Shown here in pieces: positions 20,701 through 42,487 of a stretch of DNA of 50,825 bases. The stretch lies in sequence record PZ452600.1; one strand, given 5' to 3'. Source of the DNA: a phage. Under the pieces are notes generated by a model, which was given only the letters and a program-made list of their open reading frames with translations, ran no database searches and was not told where the DNA came from. Both the position numbers and the translations under genes were made by a program. Numbering within the stretch: the stretch's first letter is position 1; every line of letters starts with the position of its first letter.

Positions 20701-20743
20701 ACTATACACGATCCGACAAGCGGCGTTTAGCAAAAAGTGCTAC
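20701..20743 (-). promoter_or_regulatory. box cassette upstream of Cor/Llp-like lipoprotein gene
   Basis: minus-strand GTAGCACTTTTTGCTAAAC (20743-20725), N18, TATAGT (20706-20701); RBS and ATG 20675 follow. Confidence 0.5.
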
Positions 20744-21112
20744 TTGTTATTTTTTGTTTTTCGGTGTTATCGAATTTAAGACGGCGTAAATTTAGCGCAA
20801 ATTTTAGCCAACATAAGTGCAATAAACAATCAATAAAATATATATATACATATAAAATCAATAGTTTATTTATTTATGTATGTATATTTGTTTTTTCTTG
20901 TTATCTGTGTTTCTTGTGGTTTTGGTTGTTTGTGGTGATTTTTCTTTCTGAGTATCTGTATGTGCCATCATTCATGTGTATGTATATAATCCGGCGTATC
21001 TGAGAGAACAAGGGAACAAGAAAAATAACACATATTAATCATTGACTTACGTTTCAAATTTGTTTTATTGCAATCTAAGAACGTTTAGAAAACAGAAAAA
21101 ACAAAACAACTA

Positions 21113-21140
21113 TTGACTAAATAAACCAAATGGCTACAAT
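21113..21140 (+). promoter_or_regulatory. sigma70-like promoter for recombination operon
   Basis: TTGACT-N16-TACAAT, about 30 nt upstream of ATG 21171. Confidence 0.6.
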
Positions 21141-27533: not shown

Positions 27534-28010
27534 TTAGCTATTTGTGCTGTTATCACCTTTGTAGAATCGTCCGCCTGGTTCGTAGTCTGAATTTTTGACT
27601 ACGCGCAACATCTCGTATTTGTCGCAACGGGTAGTAAGAGGCTTACCGTTAGAATCAAACCGCAGATCTGGACGACAAAATGATGCGCGGTATCCTTTGC
27701 ATCCATTATATTTGTAGTCGTTATGCACCTTTTGTGCTCCAGCGGCTGAAATCATACCACGCTTTCGCCATTGGTTAACGACTTGCTGAGATACGCGTAG
27801 ACGTCGAGCCATAGCAGGAACACCGCCATAATACTCGATCAGAATATCCAAGCGAGATTTCAGGCTTGCTTTTACCTCATCTCGCAGGATAAGAAATCCG
27901 GTTCGGTGTTTTCGTGGCTTTTTGTCTTTACCTCGTCGCGTTCCGTTGTTACCGTTAATAGTGCGCTTGTCGATCTCACCCGTAGACACCGCAATTCGTG
28001 CATCTTTCAT
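27534..28010 (-). CDS. helix-turn-helix DNA-binding protein
   Basis: HTH-like segment VPAMARRLRVSQQVVNQWRKRGMIS; GAGGTGA RBS; divergent from helicase. Confidence 0.55.
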   Translation of the reverse strand: MKDARIAVSTGEIDKRTINGNNGTRRGKDKKPRKHRTGFLILRDEVKASLKSRLDILIEYYGGVPAMARRLRVSQQVVNQWRKRGMISAAGAQKVHNDYKYNGCKGYRASFCRPDLRFDSNGKPLTTRCDKYEMLRVVKNSDYEPGGRFYKGDNSTNS

Positions 28011-28021
28011 CTAGTCACCTC

Positions 28022-28065
28022 ATAGCATTTTTTGTTAAAACAGTTTATTGTAATGAGTCTATTAT
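28022..28065 (+). promoter_or_regulatory. box cassette (putative phage promoter) upstream of helicase
   Basis: ATAGCATTTTTTGTTAAAAC 28022-28041, N18, TATTAT 28060-28065; in divergent intergenic region. Confidence 0.5.
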
Positions 28066-28097
28066 ATACTCCAAATGGCATTTTTTAAAGGTTTAAG

Positions 28098-30095
28098 ATG
28101 ATTCCAAATATCGAAAAACAAATATCAGCGTTAGGCGAGGCAGTAATAAAAAGCATCCAAGAGCGATTCACGGTTGGCAATATAGTGCCTTATCCTTATC
28201 AGTGCGTTGCGTATGCCGAGATCGCAAAGCGCATGAAAAACTATGAGCATCCTTTCTTTGTTAAGGCTTCTGTGTCGGCTGGCAAAACATTGATGTTTGC
28301 GATGGTTGCGGCGCAATGCCGAAAAATGGGATTGAAAATGATGGTCCTTGCTCGCCAGGCTGAAATTGTTGATCAGGATTCGGAAGAGATCAGCAATCTT
28401 GGAGTGCCAAACTCAATCTATTGCGCCGGACTGAAAACAAAAAGCGCATACTTTCCGATCGTGGTCGGTTCTGAGGGCACTGTAGTAAACGGATTGTTTA
28501 AGTCGTTAGGTGATTATGTTCCGCACGTTATCGGTATTGATGAATGTCACCAGGTGGATTGGGAGGATCTCGCGGACGCGATAGAAAATAATGAATCTTA
28601 CCAGCAGATGACCACTAAGAAGGATTTGCCAGTACTGATTGGAGAAGAACAGCAATTTGATTCCAATGGCGATCCAATGTTCGGAACAGGACGCACACAG
28701 TACACCGTAATAATCATGGAAATGATGCGCAGGTGTCGCGAGGCATACGGGCACGAATTGCGAATATTCGGTATGACTGGATCTGAATTTCGCGGCGTGG
28801 TTCCAATACTGGTTGAAGATAAGAACAAAAAGGGATTCTGGCGTGAGCAGGTGACTAACATAGACACAAACTACTTAATCAAATTCGGTTCGGTAGTGCC
28901 AACAAACTTCGGCGACGTAGGCGACCTGGGTTATGACCTTTCAGAGTTCGAAGCCAGTAGCGAGGATGGCGTTTCAGACTTTGACGCTAAAACATTGCGC
29001 AAGATGGAAGAAAAGATCCATCAAGACGCAACAATGACACAGAAAATCATGGCTAAAGTCCATGAGATATGCAAAGACAGGAACGGAGTTTTAGTTACAT
29101 GCGCAGGGGAAAGGCACTGCAAGGAGGCCGCCGCCGCACTGCCGCCAGGCGTTGAATACAGGATCATAACTGGCAAGACTGGAGATAATCAGCGTAAAGA
29201 GTGGCTGAGGGAGGCATACGAGGGAAAAGTAAAATACATCTTCCAGGTACAGGCGCTTACCACTGGCGTTAACGTTCCGTTTTGGGATACTTCGGTAATA
29301 CTGAGAAAGATAGGATCTCTAACATTGCTTATCCAGCTTTTGGGGCGCGGCATGCGACTGCTTAAGCAATGGCACATTGAGCAGGGATTCAAGAAAAAAG
29401 ATCATCTTGTATTGGATTTTGCAGGTACTATGGATGAGTTAGGTGATTTGTATTTCGATCCAATCCTTGAGCAAGCGCAATTCCAAAAGAGATTTACAAA
29501 CGGGAAAGAGCCTAAGACTTGTCCGATATGTGGAACGCTAAACAGCTTTTACGCTCGCCGATGTATGCACGTAGACGATAACGGGAAGCGATGTGAGCAT
29601 TTTTGGACTTACAGAATTTGCGAGGACCAGGTAGATCCGAGAACGAAAAAGATAATCAAGCGCGGTTGCGGAACAAAAAACGACGTAGTGGCGAGAGTAT
29701 GCCGTTGTTGCGATATTTCTCTTGTCGATCCTAACGAGAAGTTAAGCGGTAAGCACTACACCAAAAACGATTGGTGCAACGTTAAATCTTTCCGCGTTGA
29801 TATGACGAAAAACCAGAAAGGAATTATTTTTTGCTATGAGCTTGAGGCCAACGGCGACACGTTCAAGGCATACGAAAGATTTTTCCCTGAGTCAGAAAGC
29901 AACATTTGCCGGACGATATGGAGAAAAATAGCATTGCAGCACATACCGGATCGCAAGATTGCTGGTATGGTGGCGAGCTATAGAAATGCTCGTAAAATAA
30001 TGTCATACGCTCATCACATCATGCCGCCTGTACGCGTAACGCATCGCAAAAACGGCAAAGGTGAGGATAACATTGCAAAACGGGAGTTTGTTTAA
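28098..30095 (+). CDS. ATP-dependent helicase (SF2, DExH-like) with C-terminal zinc fingers
   Basis: Walker A SVSAGKTLM, Walker B/DExH IGIDECHQV, C-terminal CxxC clusters. Confidence 0.8.
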   Translation: MIPNIEKQISALGEAVIKSIQERFTVGNIVPYPYQCVAYAEIAKRMKNYEHPFFVKASVSAGKTLMFAMVAAQCRKMGLKMMVLARQAEIVDQDSEEISNLGVPNSIYCAGLKTKSAYFPIVVGSEGTVVNGLFKSLGDYVPHVIGIDECHQVDWEDLADAIENNESYQQMTTKKDLPVLIGEEQQFDSNGDPMFGTGRTQYTVIIMEMMRRCREAYGHELRIFGMTGSEFRGVVPILVEDKNKKGFWREQVTNIDTNYLIKFGSVVPTNFGDVGDLGYDLSEFEASSEDGVSDFDAKTLRKMEEKIHQDATMTQKIMAKVHEICKDRNGVLVTCAGERHCKEAAAALPPGVEYRIITGKTGDNQRKEWLREAYEGKVKYIFQVQALTTGVNVPFWDTSVILRKIGSLTLLIQLLGRGMRLLKQWHIEQGFKKKDHLVLDFAGTMDELGDLYFDPILEQAQFQKRFTNGKEPKTCPICGTLNSFYARRCMHVDDNGKRCEHFWTYRICEDQVDPRTKKIIKRGCGTKNDVVARVCRCCDISLVDPNEKLSGKHYTKNDWCNVKSFRVDMTKNQKGIIFCYELEANGDTFKAYERFFPESESNICRTIWRKIALQHIPDRKIAGMVASYRNARKIMSYAHHIMPPVRVTHRKNGKGEDNIAKREFV

Positions 30096-35034: not shown

Positions 35035-35356
35035 CGCCCATCTCCCCTATTCTAGCCATATCCCTGATCCAGTCGTTGCGCATACCATCCAGGCTATACA
35101 ATTCGAATCCGAAAGGCCGCTTTGACGATCCTTTGGACCAGTATTTTCCGCAGACCCCATCTATATAACCAGCCGTCATCATTCTTGCGCAAAATTCCTT
35201 AGATGCAAGGCTGGCGAACATTCGCGGCGTAAGTCCGGCGGCCCGTGCGAGCCGCTCACATTCTCTATGCTGATAGATAAATTTGGCTATGTGCTGCCTG
35301 TTAAACCAGTCGTATGACTCACACCATTTATACAGATCAAGCAAAAACATAATCAT
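34961..35356 (-). CDS. hypothetical protein
   Basis: 131 aa; ATGA overlap with upstream stop. Confidence 0.5.
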   Translation of the reverse strand: MIMFLLDLYKWCESYDWFNRQHIAKFIYQHRECERLARAAGLTPRMFASLASKEFCARMMTAGYIDGVCGKYWSKGSSKRPFGFELYSLDGMRNDWIRDMARIGEMGDDELFQAKANRQDLEALRRKFNIT

Positions 35357-36933
35357 CCCAGCAGTATTGGATTGACAAAAATAACACCATTAATCACACA
35401 AACATAATTTCTTTCTTCCAGCATTGGCAGCAAGTGCCCTTCTATCCTCTTCATTACGCCAGCCTGACCAACGAAAGGTTTTACCTTTCTCGCTGATTCG
35501 TACAGGGCGCGAATATTCAGGATCCCTTTGTTAGCCTTGCCGTGCCTCGTGATCAATTCAATCAATTTACCCATTTCAGCATCATCACCAGCATAACCAG
35601 AAGCATTGGCGGCGCTAATGTATGTTTTGCTCAACTCCTGAAACATGATCAGAGCCTCTTGCATTGTATCTACGTCGATCTCTTTCGACTTCTGCGGGTA
35701 TCCAGCAGGATTAAACCAGTTGCGTATAACATGCAGGACGGAAGCAAGCCTGATCACCTGTTTATCCATTTTACCCAGCGCACCGCGTAACATTGTATGA
35801 GAATACTTTCCTCCGTCTGCAAGATGCGGTTCCATATCCTGGCGAGCAATGTTGAGCACTCGCATAGCTGAACGGCTTATTTTCAGCGATATATTTGATT
35901 CGCTCATGATGTTATGCACCAATTGATAATATTGGGCTTTCAATTCAGAATCCACCGCCTCATAGGTAGAATCACCATTTTCATCAATGAATGAGCGACG
36001 GCCTAAGAATGATTCCTCGCGGACCAACAAAAAACGCTCACTAACACCGATGCCTCGCGATCCAGCGTCCATTATTCCGCTTATCGTTTCATCCTGGGCT
36101 ATAACGCTCATACATCCAAGCGCGCGAAAACTCATATTATTGTCAGCATTAGCGCGGGCAATTGATACGTGACCATTATCCCACGCCTTAAGCACTAACT
36201 CACTGTTAGTCTTCCTTTCGCTATTTGCATAGGTCAAGCCTAACAGACTGTTAATACTTGTTGCTTCATCAGATATTACGGCAAAGTTACCTTGCTTGTT
36301 GTTGATTTTCGCCAAGCCTTCTGGAGTTGTATCTGAAACAGGAAAAGTTATATCACACATTTTTTCCAGCTTTTCCTCCAGATCCTCTTTTTCCTGGTAT
36401 AGAGATTCCATATCAGCGCCGGATCTTTCGCTTTTCATCTCCTTTGCAAGACCTGCCAGCTTTGCCTGTATTTTCTTTCTTTCCTTGCGGCGTTGCTCGT
36501 TGATCTTCTCAACTTCCGCAATCATCGGAGCAATAGCCATGCTGTTGATCGCAGATTTACCAGTTGACGGCGGCTGGCTTGTAACGACGTAAAGCGCAGT
36601 CGGCTGATCGGTTCCGTGATAGTCAACCGTAAAGCGTCCAAGCATAGCGGCAGAAATGCAGCCGATAAAGTGCATGTAAGCCGATGATTCAGGGAATTGA
36701 ACGGATCGCGCAATGCTGCGTGATAACTTGCCGACAACATCAATATCATTACCAAGAGAAATAACGGGGTAGCGATCGTGACCGCTATTCACATCCTTTA
36801 CGTCGCCCCAAAAGCTGGACGACTGGCGATAGCCGTTAGCCTGAATTGATACGCGAACTGGTGAGAGGTTCTGGCTTTCAGCCATAGCGATTATTTGCTG
36901 TGGAGTTAATTTGTTCGTTTCTAATGAAAACAT
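35353..36933 (-). CDS. P-loop-containing protein (DUF3987/primase-associated-like)
   Basis: 526 aa; AAGGAG RBS; P-loop-like PPSTGKS; central charged coiled segment. Confidence 0.5.
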   Translation of the reverse strand: MFSLETNKLTPQQIIAMAESQNLSPVRVSIQANGYRQSSSFWGDVKDVNSGHDRYPVISLGNDIDVVGKLSRSIARSVQFPESSAYMHFIGCISAAMLGRFTVDYHGTDQPTALYVVTSQPPSTGKSAINSMAIAPMIAEVEKINEQRRKERKKIQAKLAGLAKEMKSERSGADMESLYQEKEDLEEKLEKMCDITFPVSDTTPEGLAKINNKQGNFAVISDEATSINSLLGLTYANSERKTNSELVLKAWDNGHVSIARANADNNMSFRALGCMSVIAQDETISGIMDAGSRGIGVSERFLLVREESFLGRRSFIDENGDSTYEAVDSELKAQYYQLVHNIMSESNISLKISRSAMRVLNIARQDMEPHLADGGKYSHTMLRGALGKMDKQVIRLASVLHVIRNWFNPAGYPQKSKEIDVDTMQEALIMFQELSKTYISAANASGYAGDDAEMGKLIELITRHGKANKGILNIRALYESARKVKPFVGQAGVMKRIEGHLLPMLEERNYVCVINGVIFVNPILLG

Positions 36934-41346: not shown

Positions 41347-41408
41347 GTTCGTTTCGATGTGTGTAATGTACCCGATCAGGCGGCCTGAGTTTTAACAAAA
41401 AGTGCTAT
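41347..41408 (-). promoter_or_regulatory. box cassette heading the leftward early block
   Basis: minus-strand box (41408-41389), hairpin CAGGCCGCCTGATCGGG, TACATT (41370-41365), CATCGAAACGAAC (41359-41347); ATG 41329. Confidence 0.5.
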
Positions 41409-41437
41409 TTGACGGTTAGCACCAGGATTGTGATCGA

Positions 41438-41530
41438 AATAATCAAAAGTAATCATTCGTAATCAAATCGCGTCAAAATGATGATTGCCTTTGCAAATTT
41501 GATGAGAAAAGTAATCACGTTTAATCATTG
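41438..41530. repeat. iteron-like array of five (G)TAATCA repeats
   Basis: aaTAATCAaaa, gTAATCAttc, gTAATCAaat (10-11 bp phasing), then gTAATCAcgt, tTAATCAttg 40 nt later; non-coding. Confidence 0.5.
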
Positions 41531-41963
41531 GTTGCAGGGGAGATAGTGAAACCTTCCCCTCTTGCCTCACTTTTCCTCCTGGCTGTCAGTGGTTGTTGTC
41601 TTTTGTTCACCACTGTTACCGATTTCAGGCGGCGTGTTTCCGCGCGGTTTTCCGGTGTAGCGAAAACGGAAAAAACAAAGAAAATCCTCTATAATACATT
41701 GAAAATAAAGATTATTTATTTATATATATCTATAATGTTTTCTTTTTGTTCTCACTGTTACAGTGCTTTTTGTTGGTTATGGTGTGGTTGTGTGTGGGTA
41801 TATATGGATAGTTTCGCGCGCGGCGGATTGCATATGTATATATACTTTTTCCGGCGGATTGCGTTAACAGCGTGAACAGAAAAATAACAGCCGCGAAATC
41901 AATAACTTGCGCGTGATTTTGTAGTTTTTCGATATTGGTAACGTTTTGAATACAACAAAAACA

Positions 41964-41991
41964 TTGACACGCACCAAATAGCTTTTATAAT
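41964..41991 (+). promoter_or_regulatory. near-consensus sigma70 promoter for rightward early block
   Basis: TTGACA-N16-TATAAT; GGAGG RBS and ATG 42023 follow. Confidence 0.7.
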
Positions 41992-42022
41992 GCGCCAACA
42001 GTCAACAACCGGAGGAAAGGAA

Positions 42023-42487
42023 ATGGAACAGAAAACCACTAAGGACTATTGCGATTGGCTTCGCGAGCTTGGTCGCCGCCTGGCTAGTGGAGATATTGAA
42101 GAGTATAAAATGTCACTAATTGACCTGGCCGGAATGTTAAGCGGTGACGACTGCTACAAGATCACGCGCAGTTCATCCTACAGCCGGACCATTATCAACC
42201 GCATTCCAGAAGTAAGGGCCGCAGGTCGGGTAAGCATCAAGGTAGAGGAAGCGGAAGATGATAAATTTTACGTTTTCCGCATGGTCCGCGAATCGAAAAG
42301 GAAAATCATCACACCCGAAGAATTGCCAGCCATCAAGGCAAGGGCGATCAAAAAGTTTGCCGATCGCTTGCTGGCAGCAATCCCGAATATCGTTGACCTG
42401 GAAGGGGATAAACTGGCTGGAGCTTGTGAGGGCGTAAGCCGCTACCAGGATATGATCCGCGAAATCATCAAAGAGGAAGAGCAATGA
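42023..42487 (+). CDS. hypothetical protein (first gene after near-consensus promoter)
   Basis: GGAGGAAAGG RBS before ATG 42023; the track start 41990 falls inside the -10 hexamer. Confidence 0.55.
   Translation: MEQKTTKDYCDWLRELGRRLASGDIEEYKMSLIDLAGMLSGDDCYKITRSSSYSRTIINRIPEVRAAGRVSIKVEEAEDDKFYVFRMVRESKRKIITPEELPAIKARAIKKFADRLLAAIPNIVDLEGDKLAGACEGVSRYQDMIREIIKEEEQ

What the first reader, a model, noticed from the sequence alone, without database searches (positions are those of the whole stretch)
41700..41880. Paralogous GT-rich non-coding element upstream of both rightward promoters
About 150 nt at 41710-41870 share order and motifs with 20860-21000 (TTATTTATTTAT, TGTTTTcTTttTGTT, TGTGGTT..TTGTgTGTGG, GTATGTATATA, CCGGCG). 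Each lies some 100-170 nt upstream of a strong sigma70-like promoter (41964-41991 and 21113-21140) in an ORF-free region of 450-650 nt. Possibilities are duplicated regulatory regions, tandem early promoters, origins, or a small RNA. Track ORFs 20737-21003 and 41528-41875 inside them look spurious.
Basis: seen in the sequence. Interest (0 to 1): 0.55.

Follow-up and report, generated by a model that had tools for sequence, protein, structure and literature searches.

The report
Twin iteron-flanked AT-rich origin-like modules
This T1-like phage has two copies of a ~370-nt non-coding module, the easiest-melting DNA in the genome flanked by oppositely oriented short repeats and ending in a strong early promoter; they are the best candidates so far for the unmapped replication origins of T1-like phages.

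Summary
The similarity covers about 370 nt (41593-41963 vs 20744-21103; 64% identity, E 2e-22, 36-40 sd above shuffles) and ends at each sigma70 promoter. The window is a T1-like phage (Drexlerviridae). Every relative tested has the same two elements: A between the divergent early operons, beside the mapped pac end, and B upstream of recE.

GT-richness is lineage-specific. Family-wide features are:
- an AT-rich core with a TATAAT box, the two least stable duplex segments in all six whole genomes tested;
- short repeats on both sides of the core in opposite orientation (TGTT/AACA here, 10-nt phased);
- GC islands.

Distant relatives have unmistakable lineage-specific iterons. In two lineages A and B share the same iteron, so one phage protein probably binds both.

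The phage's DUF3987 helicase models as an MCM-like AAA+ helicase with a C-terminal winged helix. That is the class of the self-loading SaPI/SCCmec initiator helicases, whose origins have this anatomy.

Best reading (about 0.5): twin replication origins coupled to the early promoters. Main rival (about 0.3): purely transcriptional operator arrays. A small RNA and the two track ORFs are not supported. No function was tested.

The parts
41593..41963 (+). Element A: the full paralogous module, ending at the -35 hexamer of the early promoter
   Evidence: blastn/SW against 20744-21103. Aligns end to end with the 360-column nhmmer profile built from A and B copies of Tempevirinae.
20744..21103 (+). 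Element B: the paralogous module upstream of the recE-erf-ssb operon
   Evidence: The homologous position is occupied in T1, TLS, Rtp, PaulSarasin, CF1, Ec_L1 and IMG/VR contigs.
41594..41619 (+). A, outer left repeat array: TGTT x3 at exact 10-nt spacing (TGTTGTCTTTTGTTCACCACTGTTAC)
   Evidence: TGTT-N6-TGTT-N6-KGTT occurs only here and at 20745 in the window, against 0.04 expected. Direct repeat of 41736-41761.
41669..41684 (+). A, AACA-type repeats pointing left, directly left of the AT core
   Evidence: Inverted repeat with 41738-41753, 81% complementary, 53 nt between the arms. Orientation map.
41687..41699 (+). A, conserved CTCTATAATACAT box (TATAAT at 41690-41695)
   Evidence: One of the most conserved blocks of the profile (1.25 bits per column). 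CTATATAAT or TATAAT is also present in T1, TLS, Rtp and CF1. No -35 partner was found by reading the sequence.
41670..41749 (.). A, AT-rich core, proposed DNA unwinding element
   Evidence: Second least stable 80-bp duplex of the window (z 4.6). The 40-mer 41689-41728 is 90% A+T.
41736..41761 (+). A, TGTT repeats pointing right, directly right of the AT core
   Evidence: Direct repeat of 41594-41619 (77%). Inverted repeat with 41865-41889 (80%). Map.
41762..41800 (+). A, GT-rich stretch: composition is conserved, sequence is not
   Evidence: Profile columns 173-229 carry only 0.84 bits per column. GT-richness ranks top two in the window but not in T1 or Rtp.
41821..41862 (+). A, two exact CGGCGGATTGC copies around ATATGTATATATAC (the GC island)
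   Evidence: repeat D7. CGGCG-type islands lie 210 nt apart in both A and B. Related CCGGCG, CCGCGG or TTCCGCG islands are seen in the relatives read.
41861..41889 (+). A, three tandem 9-11-nt repeats: GCGTTAACA, GCGTGAACA, GAAAAATAACA
   Evidence: T1 has CGATTAACA x3 at the matching place.
41897..41909 (+). A, match to the IHF consensus (AATCAATAACTTG) in the conserved block ATCAAtnACTTAc
   Evidence: 7 matches in the window against 4.2 expected, so weak on its own. The block is conserved at 1.30 bits per column.
41940..41963 (+). A, A-rich block next to the promoter, resembling an UP element
   Evidence: Conserved profile columns 337-360, 1.33 bits per column. The UP-element reading is an inference.
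41964..41991 (+). Early sigma70 promoter of the rightward early operon
   Evidence: TTGACA-16-TATAAT, 12 of 12.
41996..42010 (+). AACA-type repeats in the first transcribed bases, an operator-like position
   Evidence: 87% complementary to 41591-41605. In T1 and in locus L083 iterons overlap the promoter or the transcription start.
20745..20771 (+). B, outer left TGTT x3 array at 10-nt spacing
20823..20902 (.). B, AT-rich core, proposed DNA unwinding element
   Evidence: Least stable 80-bp duplex of the window (z 5.1, 88% A+T). Flanked by 33-nt inverted arms 20825-20857 / 20870-20902.
20887..20908 (+). B, TGTT repeats pointing right, directly right of the core
   Evidence: Direct repeat of 20753-20771 (84%). 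Inverted repeat with 21015-21034. Map.
20977..20998 (+). B, TGTATGTATATAATCCGGCGTA (TA-rich block plus GC island)
   Evidence: repeat D4 lies 210 nt from 20774-20788, repeat D6 100 nt from 20877.
21002..21034 (+). B, three AACA-type repeats: GAGAGAACAAG, GGGAACAAG, AAAAATAACAC
21113..21140 (+). Sigma70 promoter of recE-erf-ssb
   Evidence: TTGACT-16-TACAAT, 10 of 12. The TLS paper lists a P51 promoter for the exonuclease gene (PMC11447400).
41411..41592 (+). Spacer found only in A, with phased GTAATCA repeats (41449, 41459, 41511); probably the pac region. Not part of the paralogy.
   Evidence: The T1 and TLS records start in the homologous spacer. TLS base 1 is the authors' pac assignment, and T1 annotates a 1-2800 terminal repeat.
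41386..41410 (-). DR-type promoter module heading the leftward operon, which encodes the MCM-like helicase
   Evidence: The DR consensus is published for TLS.
20725..20746 (-). DR-type promoter module heading the leftward lipoprotein (cor-like) gene; abuts element B
35353..36933 (-). DUF3987 helicase: MCM-like AAA+ fold with a C-terminal winged helix; candidate self-loading initiator helicase
42023..42487 (+). DUF7174 gene, first gene after the A promoter; a speculative alternative reader of the repeats
   Evidence: Pfam hit. Same position in TLS gp01, Rtp1, PaulSarasin, L082 and L083; second gene (gp47) in CF1. It diverges fast.

Best explanation
Elements A and B are most likely twin replication origins of this T1-like phage, or one origin plus an auxiliary cis site.

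Each element has an AT-rich unwinding core. Short repeats (iterons) flank the core on both sides and point in opposite directions. Further repeat arrays and GC islands lie outside them, and each element ends in a strong host-type early promoter.

Proposed mechanism; every step is inferred:
1. A phage protein binds the repeats on both sides of the core. Candidates are the MCM-like DUF3987 helicase through its C-terminal winged helix, or a dedicated reader such as the adjacent DUF7174 protein.
2. Negative supercoiling builds up behind the divergently transcribing polymerases: the sigma70 promoter fires rightward and the DR-type promoter leftward. This helps melt the TA-rich core.
3. Two helicase rings load on the melted core, and the zinc-ribbon primase and host Pol III follow.
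4. Repeats that extend into the promoter region let the same protein modulate early transcription.

Shown here: the paralogy, its family-wide conservation, the extreme duplex instability, the repeat anatomy, the sharing of lineage-specific iterons between A and B, and the helicase fold.

Not shown: any binding, melting or replication initiation.
For: 1. Real and ancient paralogy. Window. T1, TLS and Rtp: SW 35, 38 and 83 against about 13 +- 1.5. All 13 IMG/VR contigs that had both loci. A 360-column profile aligns end to end with most A and B copies. Conservation is block-wise, and distal blocks are as conserved as promoter-proximal ones.

2. Duplex instability. The AT cores of A and B are the two least stable 40-, 80- and 150-bp duplex segments of the window (z 3.7-5.1). 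They are also the two least stable 80-mers in T1, TLS, Rtp, PaulSarasin and CF1 (z 5.0-6.3, third site <= 3.6).

3. Repeat anatomy.
- TGTT/AACA occurs 16-17 times per element, against 4.9 expected, in the same ordered orientation pattern in A and B.
- The 10-11-nt periodicity is the highest (A, z 9.0) and second highest (B, z 7.0) in the genome.
- The phased TGTT triple is unique to the two elements.
- Inverted arms bracket the core.

4. Lineage-specific iterons around the same core in distant relatives: TTGTCCCA, TTGCGGTAGAT, TAATCTTACC, TTACGGAGGAT. Within the loci examined they are almost confined to the elements. A and B of one genome share the same iteron in Enterobacter phage Ec_L1 and in IMG/VR contig 3300048919_000084. 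In that contig two copies point left, the core follows, and two copies point right.

5. Helicase. The DUF3987 helicase models as an MCM-like AAA+ helicase with a C-terminal winged helix. Pfam and PHROGs scans of the six replication-module proteins named no initiator or helicase loader.

6. Matching known systems. SaPI Rep helicases are self-loading initiators. Their winged helix reads 5-6-nt iterons, and at least two iterons lie on each side of an AT-rich centre pointing in opposite directions (PMC9371898). SaPIbov1-type Rep2 and SCCmec Cch are MCM-like. SPP1 has two similarly built origins about 13 kb apart (PMC6316719).

7. The origin of T1-like phages is reported as not found (PMC11447400 and PMC7718038).
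Against: - No experimental datum places initiation here.
- In the window's own lineage the repeats are short and degenerate (a TGTT core), so specific recognition is less obvious than in the distant lineages.
- The helicase C-terminal domain is nearly the same in L082 and L083, although their iterons are unrelated.
- Repeats overlap or follow the promoters in T1, L083 and the window. That equally fits plain operators of an early-gene regulator.
- The element is upstream of both flanking promoters, not downstream as in the R-loop-primed origins of T4 and T7.
- There are no DnaA boxes and no GATC cluster.
- The IHF match is weak statistically.
- In some A alleles (CF1 type) the profile matches only the left half, columns 1-182.
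Confidence: 0.5

Rival explanations
1. The elements are purely transcriptional control regions of the two immediate-early promoters. The repeats are operators of a phage regulator, for example the Cro/YdaS-like HTH protein at 27534-28010 or the DUF7174 protein. The A-rich block acts as an UP element and the ATCAA..TT block as an IHF site. The TA-rich core is a flexible hinge that allows a repression or activation loop between the flanking operator sets. There is no role in replication.
For: - Both elements end in consensus sigma70 promoters. The TLS authors found only three intergenic sigma70-like promoters in TLS.
- Repeats lie in the promoter spacer, at the -10 hexamer or just after it in L083, T1 and the window.
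- The conserved A-rich block and the IHF-like block sit at plausible positions.
- In T1 the three CGATTAACA repeats lie directly upstream of the -35 hexamer.
- A phage HTH regulator exists.
Against: - A hinge does not need to be the least stable duplex of the genome in all six genomes tested.
- Conservation does not decay with distance from the promoter.
- In Ec_L1 and the L083 lineage, the promoter next to B (and in Ec_L1 also next to A) is a DR-type module rather than a sigma70 consensus, yet the iteron-core module is kept. The module is therefore not tied to one promoter type.
- The pattern of two repeats on each side, in opposite orientation, around an AT centre is the documented anatomy of a self-loading-helicase origin.
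Confidence: 0.3
2. The elements are packaging or recombination sites. In this reading the repeats bind the small terminase (pac), or the GT-rich/TA-rich DNA is a recombination hot spot serving the adjacent RecE/Erf system.
For: - The pac end of T1, TLS and SU57 maps to intergenic region A.
- B sits directly upstream of recE-erf-ssb.
- Rtp shows recent homogenisation of A and B.
- A alleles are exchanged between otherwise near-identical phages.
Against: - Record starts and pac assignments fall in the A-specific spacer to the left of the paralogous part. That spacer has its own repeats (GTAATCA) and B lacks it.
- The TLS paper reports one submolar pac fragment and mentions no second pac site.
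- No Chi-like sequence is present.
- GT-richness is absent in T1 and Rtp.
Confidence: 0.07
3. The elements encode a small RNA or a small hydrophobic protein (the track ORFs 41528-41875 and 20737-21003).
For: - A conserved TATAAT box could start a GU-rich transcript.
- Long stop-free frames exist in the window.
Against: - No Rfam match at gathering thresholds, or at E <= 1 apart from chance snoRNA hits.
- Fold z-scores are only -1.3 and -1.6.
- The only terminator-like hairpin (41753-41765) is not conserved in B.
- The stop-free stretch of B (85 codons) is broken to 53 in relatives that are 96-97% identical.
- Frames and positions differ between relatives.
- GT-rich DNA lacks stop codons by composition.
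Confidence: 0.04

Closest known systems
Replication origins of staphylococcal pathogenicity islands (SaPI ori) with Rep self-loading initiator helicases, and the related SCCmec Cch
   Same: - An AT-rich centre with at least two short iterons on each side pointing in opposite directions, 6-12 iterons in all (PMC9371898). Compare.
- The element's own helicase is AAA+ with a C-terminal winged helix. SaPIbov1-type Rep2 and Cch are MCM-like, as is the window helicase.
- A separate primase gene is present.
- No initiator or loader was named among the six replication-module proteins scanned.
   Different: - SaPI ori lies just downstream of rep. Here there are two copies, 4.4 kb and 15-25 kb from the helicase gene, and each is fused to an early promoter.
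- Each element is internally duplicated and about 370 nt long.
- Whether the winged helix reads the repeats is doubtful.
Bacillus phage SPP1 oriL and oriR
   Same: - A pac-type, headful-packaging siphophage with two origins of similar build (direct repeats plus an AT-rich unwinding element), about 13 kb apart.
- The A+T islands are the strongest compositional bias in that genome.
- One origin lies in a long intergenic region.
- A RecE-like exonuclease, an annealing protein and an SSB drive the later recombination-dependent stage (PMC6316719).
   Different: - SPP1 uses a dedicated origin-binding protein (gp38), a loader (gp39) and a DnaB-type helicase (gp40). The T1-like phages have an MCM-like helicase, and no gp38 homologue was seen.
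- oriL lies inside gene 38.
- The SPP1 origins are experimentally proven. These are not.
Satellite phage P4 ori and crr (from my own knowledge; not checked in a paper here)
   Same: Two separated cis elements, both carrying the same octamer iteron (TGTTCACC) in both orientations, bound by the primase-helicase alpha through a C-terminal DNA-binding domain. crr is itself an internal duplication.
   Different: - The exact P4 octamer occurs only once in the window, at 41604, which proves nothing.
- P4 alpha is a fused SF3-type primase-helicase.
- The PDB sequence searches with the helicase and its C-terminal domain returned no significant match, so none to a P4 origin-binding domain if one is deposited.
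Transcription-activated phage origins: T7 primary origin, T4 oriF/oriG, lambda ori (from my own knowledge)
   Same: A strong promoter lies next to an AT-rich unwinding region, and transcription helps opening.
   Different: In T7 and T4 the unwinding element lies downstream of the promoter and the transcript primes synthesis. Here the core lies upstream of both divergent promoters, so any help would come through supercoiling, as with gidA at oriC.
21-nt direct repeat (DR) of TLS and T1-like phages (PMC11447400)
   Same: A DR copy bounds each intergenic region on the left (41386-41410 and 20725-20746).
   Different: The DR is a separate, dispersed element with 22 copies. It is not part of the A/B paralogy, and the published description does not mention the A/B module.

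Membership tests
Iteron-type origin for a self-loading initiator helicase (SaPI Rep / SCCmec Cch type) | AT-rich centre that is easy to melt | tested here: met
   The two least stable duplex segments in the window and in five other whole genomes.
Iteron-type origin for a self-loading initiator helicase (SaPI Rep / SCCmec Cch type) | At least two short iterons on each side of the AT centre, pointing in opposite directions | tested here: met
   Window map and inverted arms. Unambiguous in L083/L151. In Ec_L1 the iterons lie on both sides of the core, but only one copy was seen directly right of it.
Iteron-type origin for a self-loading initiator helicase (SaPI Rep / SCCmec Cch type) | The element encodes an AAA+ (SF3 or MCM-like) helicase with a C-terminal winged helix | tested here: met
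   [not shown]
Iteron-type origin for a self-loading initiator helicase (SaPI Rep / SCCmec Cch type) | The helicase winged helix binds the iterons specifically | tested here: inconclusive
   Only co-variation could be examined. The C-terminal domains of L082 and L083 are very similar although their iterons differ completely, which argues against. Binding itself cannot be tested with these tools.
Iteron-type origin for a self-loading initiator helicase (SaPI Rep / SCCmec Cch type) | Supports initiation of replication | not testable with these tools
   Needs marker-frequency data, 2D gels or plasmid amplification assays.
Twin phage origins (SPP1 oriL/oriR type) | Two separated elements of the same build, bound by the same protein | tested here: met
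   The same build is shown. The same lineage-specific iteron occurs in A and B of one genome in two lineages. Binding itself is inferred.
DnaA-dependent, oriC-like origin | Cluster of DnaA boxes and GATC sites | tested here: not met
   One one-mismatch DnaA box in each intergenic region (2.2 expected for the two together), and no GATC inside either paralogous element.
Sigma70 promoter with UP element and IHF site | Consensus -35 and -10 hexamers with 16-18-nt spacing | tested here: met
Sigma70 promoter with UP element and IHF site | IHF consensus WATCAANNNNTTR at a conserved position | tested here: inconclusive
   Exact match in A at 41897. B has one mismatch at the aligned position and an exact match elsewhere (20856). 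The window has 7 matches against 4.2 expected. The block is conserved.
Structured non-coding RNA | Match to a known family, or a fold better than shuffled sequence | tested here: not met
Protein-coding gene | Reading frame conserved in relatives | tested here: not met
pac site (small-terminase recognition) | Coincides with the mapped packaging start, which is unique in the genome | tested here: not met
   Record starts and pac assignments lie in the A-specific spacer, not in the shared part, and B has no such spacer.

The most novel reading that the evidence does not exclude
One lineage-specific phage protein reads the repeats at both elements and thereby couples three events:
- it fires bidirectional replication by loading the MCM-like helicase at the melted cores;
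- it shuts off or retunes the two immediate-early promoters through the repeats that reach into them;
- when bound at the second element, next to recE-erf-ssb, it stalls forks, which switches the phage from theta to recombination-dependent concatemer synthesis, as proposed for SPP1 oriR.

This would be the first described origin system for an MCM-like helicase in a virulent coliphage.
Probability: 0.15. Interest if true: 0.75.

Novelty: new member of a known kind. Interest (0 to 1): 0.6.

Why it matters
T1 is one of the classic T phages, and T1-like phages are notorious laboratory and fermentation contaminants. Their replication origin has nevertheless never been located. Two genome papers say explicitly that none was found (PMC11447400, PMC7718038).

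This analysis names two precise candidate sites, each with a defined core and repeats, and identifies a helicase of the MCM-like self-loading class. The question becomes directly testable by marker-frequency sequencing, plasmid amplification or footprinting.

If confirmed, it would extend the SaPI/SCCmec type of origin-helicase system to a large family of virulent enterobacterial phages. It would also give a handle for engineering these phages or blocking their replication.

Tried and rejected
- **Concerted evolution of A and B.** First suggested by within-genome SW scores. Column-wise identities in the profile show that own A-B identity (0.52-0.66) is no higher than A against another genome's B. 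Only Rtp shows recent homogenisation. The claim is dropped.
- **P4-type iteron TGTTCACC.** It occurs once in the window, which is too little to use.
- **DnaA boxes, Chi, PhoB boxes, ArcA-like boxes.** No meaningful enrichment.
- **AA/TT helical periodicity (plain A-tract curvature).** A ranks fifth and B is unremarkable. The periodicity is specific to TGTT/AACA.
- **Rfam, at gathering thresholds and by E-value.** Nothing.
- **Single-strand folding.** z only -1.3 and -1.6. A longer ViennaRNA script timed out.
- **Homologues in E. coli genomes and plasmids.** None.
- **Single-sequence AF2 of the helicase C-terminus.** pLDDT 47, unusable.
- **PDB sequence searches with the helicase and its C-terminal profile.** Nothing meaningful.
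- **Literature.** The Rtp genome paper could not be opened; the T1 genome paper was not held and was not tried. Searches for T1 transcription-start or origin data returned nothing relevant.
- **A -35 hexamer for the TATAAT box.** None found on either strand by reading the aligned sequences.
- **Cumulative GC skew.** It follows gene orientation and does not discriminate between the hypotheses.
Full report
**What the window is.** The two intergenic regions are 95-99% (A) and 90-99% (B) identical to those of many Escherichia phages of the T1 group, including JLBYU16, SECphi27, tunus, swan01 and tiwna. The gene order is that of T1, TLS and Rtp: terminase and structural genes, recE-erf-ssb, primase, helicases, lysis genes and small early genes. 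The window appears to be a near-complete genome of a Drexlerviridae (Tempevirinae) phage.

**Checking the observation.**
- Local alignment of the whole intergenic regions scores 81, against 13.0 +- 1.7 for dinucleotide shuffles.
- blastn aligns 41593-41963 with 20744-21103 at 64% over 379 columns (E 2.5e-22). It finds no third copy.
- The similarity is therefore real, covers about 370 nt rather than 150, and runs to the -35 hexamers of the two promoters: 41964-41991 (12/12) and 21113-21140 (10/12).
- Both regions lie between divergently transcribed genes.
- The two most G+T-rich 100-nt windows of the genome are inside the elements.

**The track ORFs and a small RNA.**
- The 85-codon stop-free stretch of B is cut to 53 codons in relatives that are 96-97% identical. 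Neither frame nor position is conserved among relatives. G+T-rich DNA lacks stop codons by composition.
- Rfam gives nothing.
- Folding is barely better than shuffles, with z of -1.3 and -1.6.
- Both readings are set aside.

**Family-wide conservation.**
- T1, TLS and Rtp each have the same pair of regions. A is the long gap between the divergent early operons, and B is the gap upstream of recE.
- A and B are significantly similar within each genome: SW 35, 38 and 83 against about 13 +- 1.5.
- In all 13 IMG/VR contigs for which I had both loci, B finds a significant paralogue in A.
- A 360-column nhmmer profile aligns end to end with most A and B copies of the subfamily.
- Conservation is block-wise. 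The far-upstream blocks (1.25-1.26 bits per column) are about as conserved as the promoter-proximal block (1.33 bits per column).
- Distant blastn hits are confined to Drexlerviridae-type phages of enterobacteria. There is no match in E. coli genomes or in plasmids.
- My first impression of concerted evolution did not survive a column-wise test. A and B are old paralogues. A alleles are exchanged between phages whose B element and helicase are nearly identical. Only Rtp shows recent homogenisation of A and B.

**Anatomy of each element, left to right.**
1. Three TGTT units at exact 10-nt spacing. This pattern occurs only at 20745 and 41594 in the window.
2. A CGGCG island.
3. AACA units, the same motif in the opposite orientation.
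4. A conserved C-TATAAT-A box.
5. A TA-rich core.
6. TGTT units again.
7. A G+T-rich stretch whose composition, but not sequence, is conserved.
8. A TATATA block and a second CGGCG island, 210 nt from the first in both copies.
9. Three tandem 9-11-nt AACA units.
10. A conserved ATCAAtnACTTAc block, which matches the IHF consensus in A.
11. An A-rich block.
12. The promoter, followed by more AACA units in the first transcribed bases.

The orientation map is the same in A and B, with 16-17 motif copies against 4.9 expected. The 10-11-nt periodicity of TGTT/AACA is the highest and second highest in the genome, z 9.0 and 7.0. Each element also contains an internal duplication: 41594-41619 matches 41736-41761, and 20753-20771 matches 20887-20905.

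**What is universal.** The AT cores are the two least stable duplex segments of the window at 40, 80 and 150 bp (z 3.7-5.1). They are also the two least stable 80-mers in T1, TLS, Rtp, PaulSarasin and CF1 (z 5.0-6.3, with the third site never above 3.6). G+T-richness is not universal.

**Lineage-specific iterons.** In more distant relatives the same core is flanked by obvious repeats specific to each lineage: TTGTCCCA, TTGCGGTAGAT, TAATCTTACC and TTACGGAGGAT. Within the loci examined these are almost confined to the elements. I then tested a prediction: if one protein reads these repeats, B of the same genome should carry the same iteron as A.
- This holds in Enterobacter phage Ec_L1. All 6 copies in the 17.6-kb A locus lie in A. 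Of the 9 copies in the 8.4-kb B locus, 8 lie in B, including tandem copies at 9-11-nt spacing.
- It holds in IMG/VR contig 3300048919_000084, with 10 copies in A and 9 in B. In both elements two copies point left, the core follows, and two copies point right.
- In T1 the flavours differ. GATTAAC occurs 6 times in A (0.24 expected) and TGTAAC 7 times in B (0.26 expected), with a shared TAACA core.

**Replication proteins.**
- Pfam finds a zinc-ribbon primase, an SF2 helicase with a VRR-NUC partner, a Cro/YdaS-like HTH protein and a DUF3987 protein annotated as a helicase. Neither Pfam nor PHROGs names an initiator or loader among the six replication-module proteins scanned.
- With an alignment of 46 homologues, the DUF3987 protein gives a confident model: pLDDT 88.9, pTM 0.86.
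- Foldseek's top 50 PDB hits are all MCM2-7 subunits, E down to 6e-6.
- The protein is thus an MCM-like AAA+ helicase with a C-terminal winged helix.
- The literature describes such staphylococcal Rep and Cch proteins as self-loading initiator helicases. Their winged helix reads 5-6-nt iterons, and their origins have an AT-rich centre with at least two iterons on each side pointing in opposite directions (PMC9371898).
- SPP1, another pac-type siphophage, has two similarly built origins (PMC6316719).
- Two genome papers state that no origin has been found in T1-like phages.

**Interpretation.** The best-supported reading is that A and B are twin origins, or an origin plus an auxiliary site, coupled to the early promoters. 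I put this at about 0.5. Nothing functional has been tested, and several points weigh against it:
- The window's own repeats are short and degenerate.
- The fast-evolving DUF7174 protein is an alternative reader. It is encoded right after the A promoter in the window, TLS, Rtp, PaulSarasin, L082 and L083, and as the second gene in CF1.
- Repeats reaching into the promoters fit ordinary operators just as well.

The main rival is a purely transcriptional control region, which I put at about 0.3. It explains the promoter-proximal third well. It does not explain why the core is the least stable duplex in every genome tested. It also does not explain why the module persists where the adjacent promoter is of the DR type rather than a sigma70 consensus.

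A packaging role is unlikely for the shared part. The mapped or assigned pac ends of T1 and TLS fall in the A-specific spacer, which has its own GTAATCA repeats and which B lacks.

**Novelty.** As a kind of element (iterons, an unwinding core, a self-loading AAA+ helicase) this is known. In the papers I could search, it has not been described for Drexlerviridae, where the origin is an acknowledged gap. I therefore file it as a new member of a known kind, with moderate-to-good interest because it makes that gap directly testable.

Noticed in passing
window, 22 sites: 1566, 5684, 6212, 9965, 15877, 20743, 26460, 28022, 30511, 31582, 34843, 37005, 37679, 39597, 40103, 41408, 42753, 43216, 44118, 45568, 46879, 48173: The published 21-nt direct repeat of T1-like phages (aaATAGCACnnnTTGnTAAAA, function unknown per PMC11447400) is followed by a -10-like hexamer. 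The hexamer lies exactly 22 nt after TTGnTA in 14 of 22 copies, and at 21-23 nt in 17 of 22. The fixed but non-canonical spacing suggests an activator-dependent promoter class. The repeat would be the activator site, not a stoperator or an UP element.
   Followed up: partly
window 41411-41592: The spacer found only in region A carries phased GTAATCA repeats at 41449, 41459 and 41511; the window has 14 copies against 6 expected. T1 has GATTAC repeats at the matching place. The T1 and TLS records start inside this spacer; TLS base 1 is the authors' pac assignment and T1 annotates a 1-2800 terminal repeat. It is probably the pac / small-terminase recognition region.
   Followed up: partly
[not shown]
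   Followed up: yes
window 42023-42487; L002 589-1038; L003 546-1064; L004 43094-43552; L005 32465-32908: A DUF7174 protein is the first gene after the A promoter in the window, TLS, Rtp, PaulSarasin, L082 and L083, and the second gene in CF1. It diverges much faster than the helicase: 59%, 42%, 35% and 27% identity to the window protein, against 84-71% for the helicase. Its function is unknown. It is a possible reader of the repeats.
   Followed up: partly
L087 / L006 (IMG/VR 3300045988_025133) compared with the window: This contig has a helicase 99% identical and an element B 97% identical to the window. Its element A and its first early gene are a different allele (about 60% identity; repeats of the GATAACA flavour). 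Region A therefore behaves as an exchangeable cassette.
   Followed up: partly
window 28010-28098: A third divergent control region. A sigma70-like promoter reads leftward (TTTAAA-17-TATAAT, 28089-28061) toward the Cro/YdaS-like HTH gene and the primase. A DR module reads rightward toward the SF2 helicase. It has no iteron-core module, although it is among the less stable sites.
   Followed up: partly
L095 6749-7322 (Ec_L1) and L151 560-1200: In these two distant lineages recE is preceded by a DR-type module instead of a sigma70 consensus promoter. In Ec_L1 region B lies between the primase gene and recE on the same strand. The iteron-core module is kept in both.
   Followed up: no
L003 131-292 and 28004-28165 (Rtp): In Rtp the A and B cores are about 90% identical over the last 100 nt (SW 83), far closer than in other genera. 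This suggests a recent gene conversion between the two copies. Rtp also has TTTCCGCGGA(AA) palindromes, 4 hits of the 10-mer in the genome, all in A (3) or B (1).
   Followed up: partly
window 41629-41656, 41816-41862, 20781-20788, 20990-20996: GC islands (CCGGCG, TTCCGCG, CCGCGG) sit on both sides of the AT core, 210 nt apart in both A and B. They recur in the relatives read, whatever the lineage-specific iteron. What binds them is unknown.
   Followed up: no
one search hit list (MG065640, MG065657, MG065673, MG065681, MG065687): Eleven records named 'Campylobacter phage', with C. jejuni given as host, carry this T1-like element and have T1-like genome sizes (47-50 kb). They look like T1-like coliphages deposited under a Campylobacter label.
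   Followed up: no
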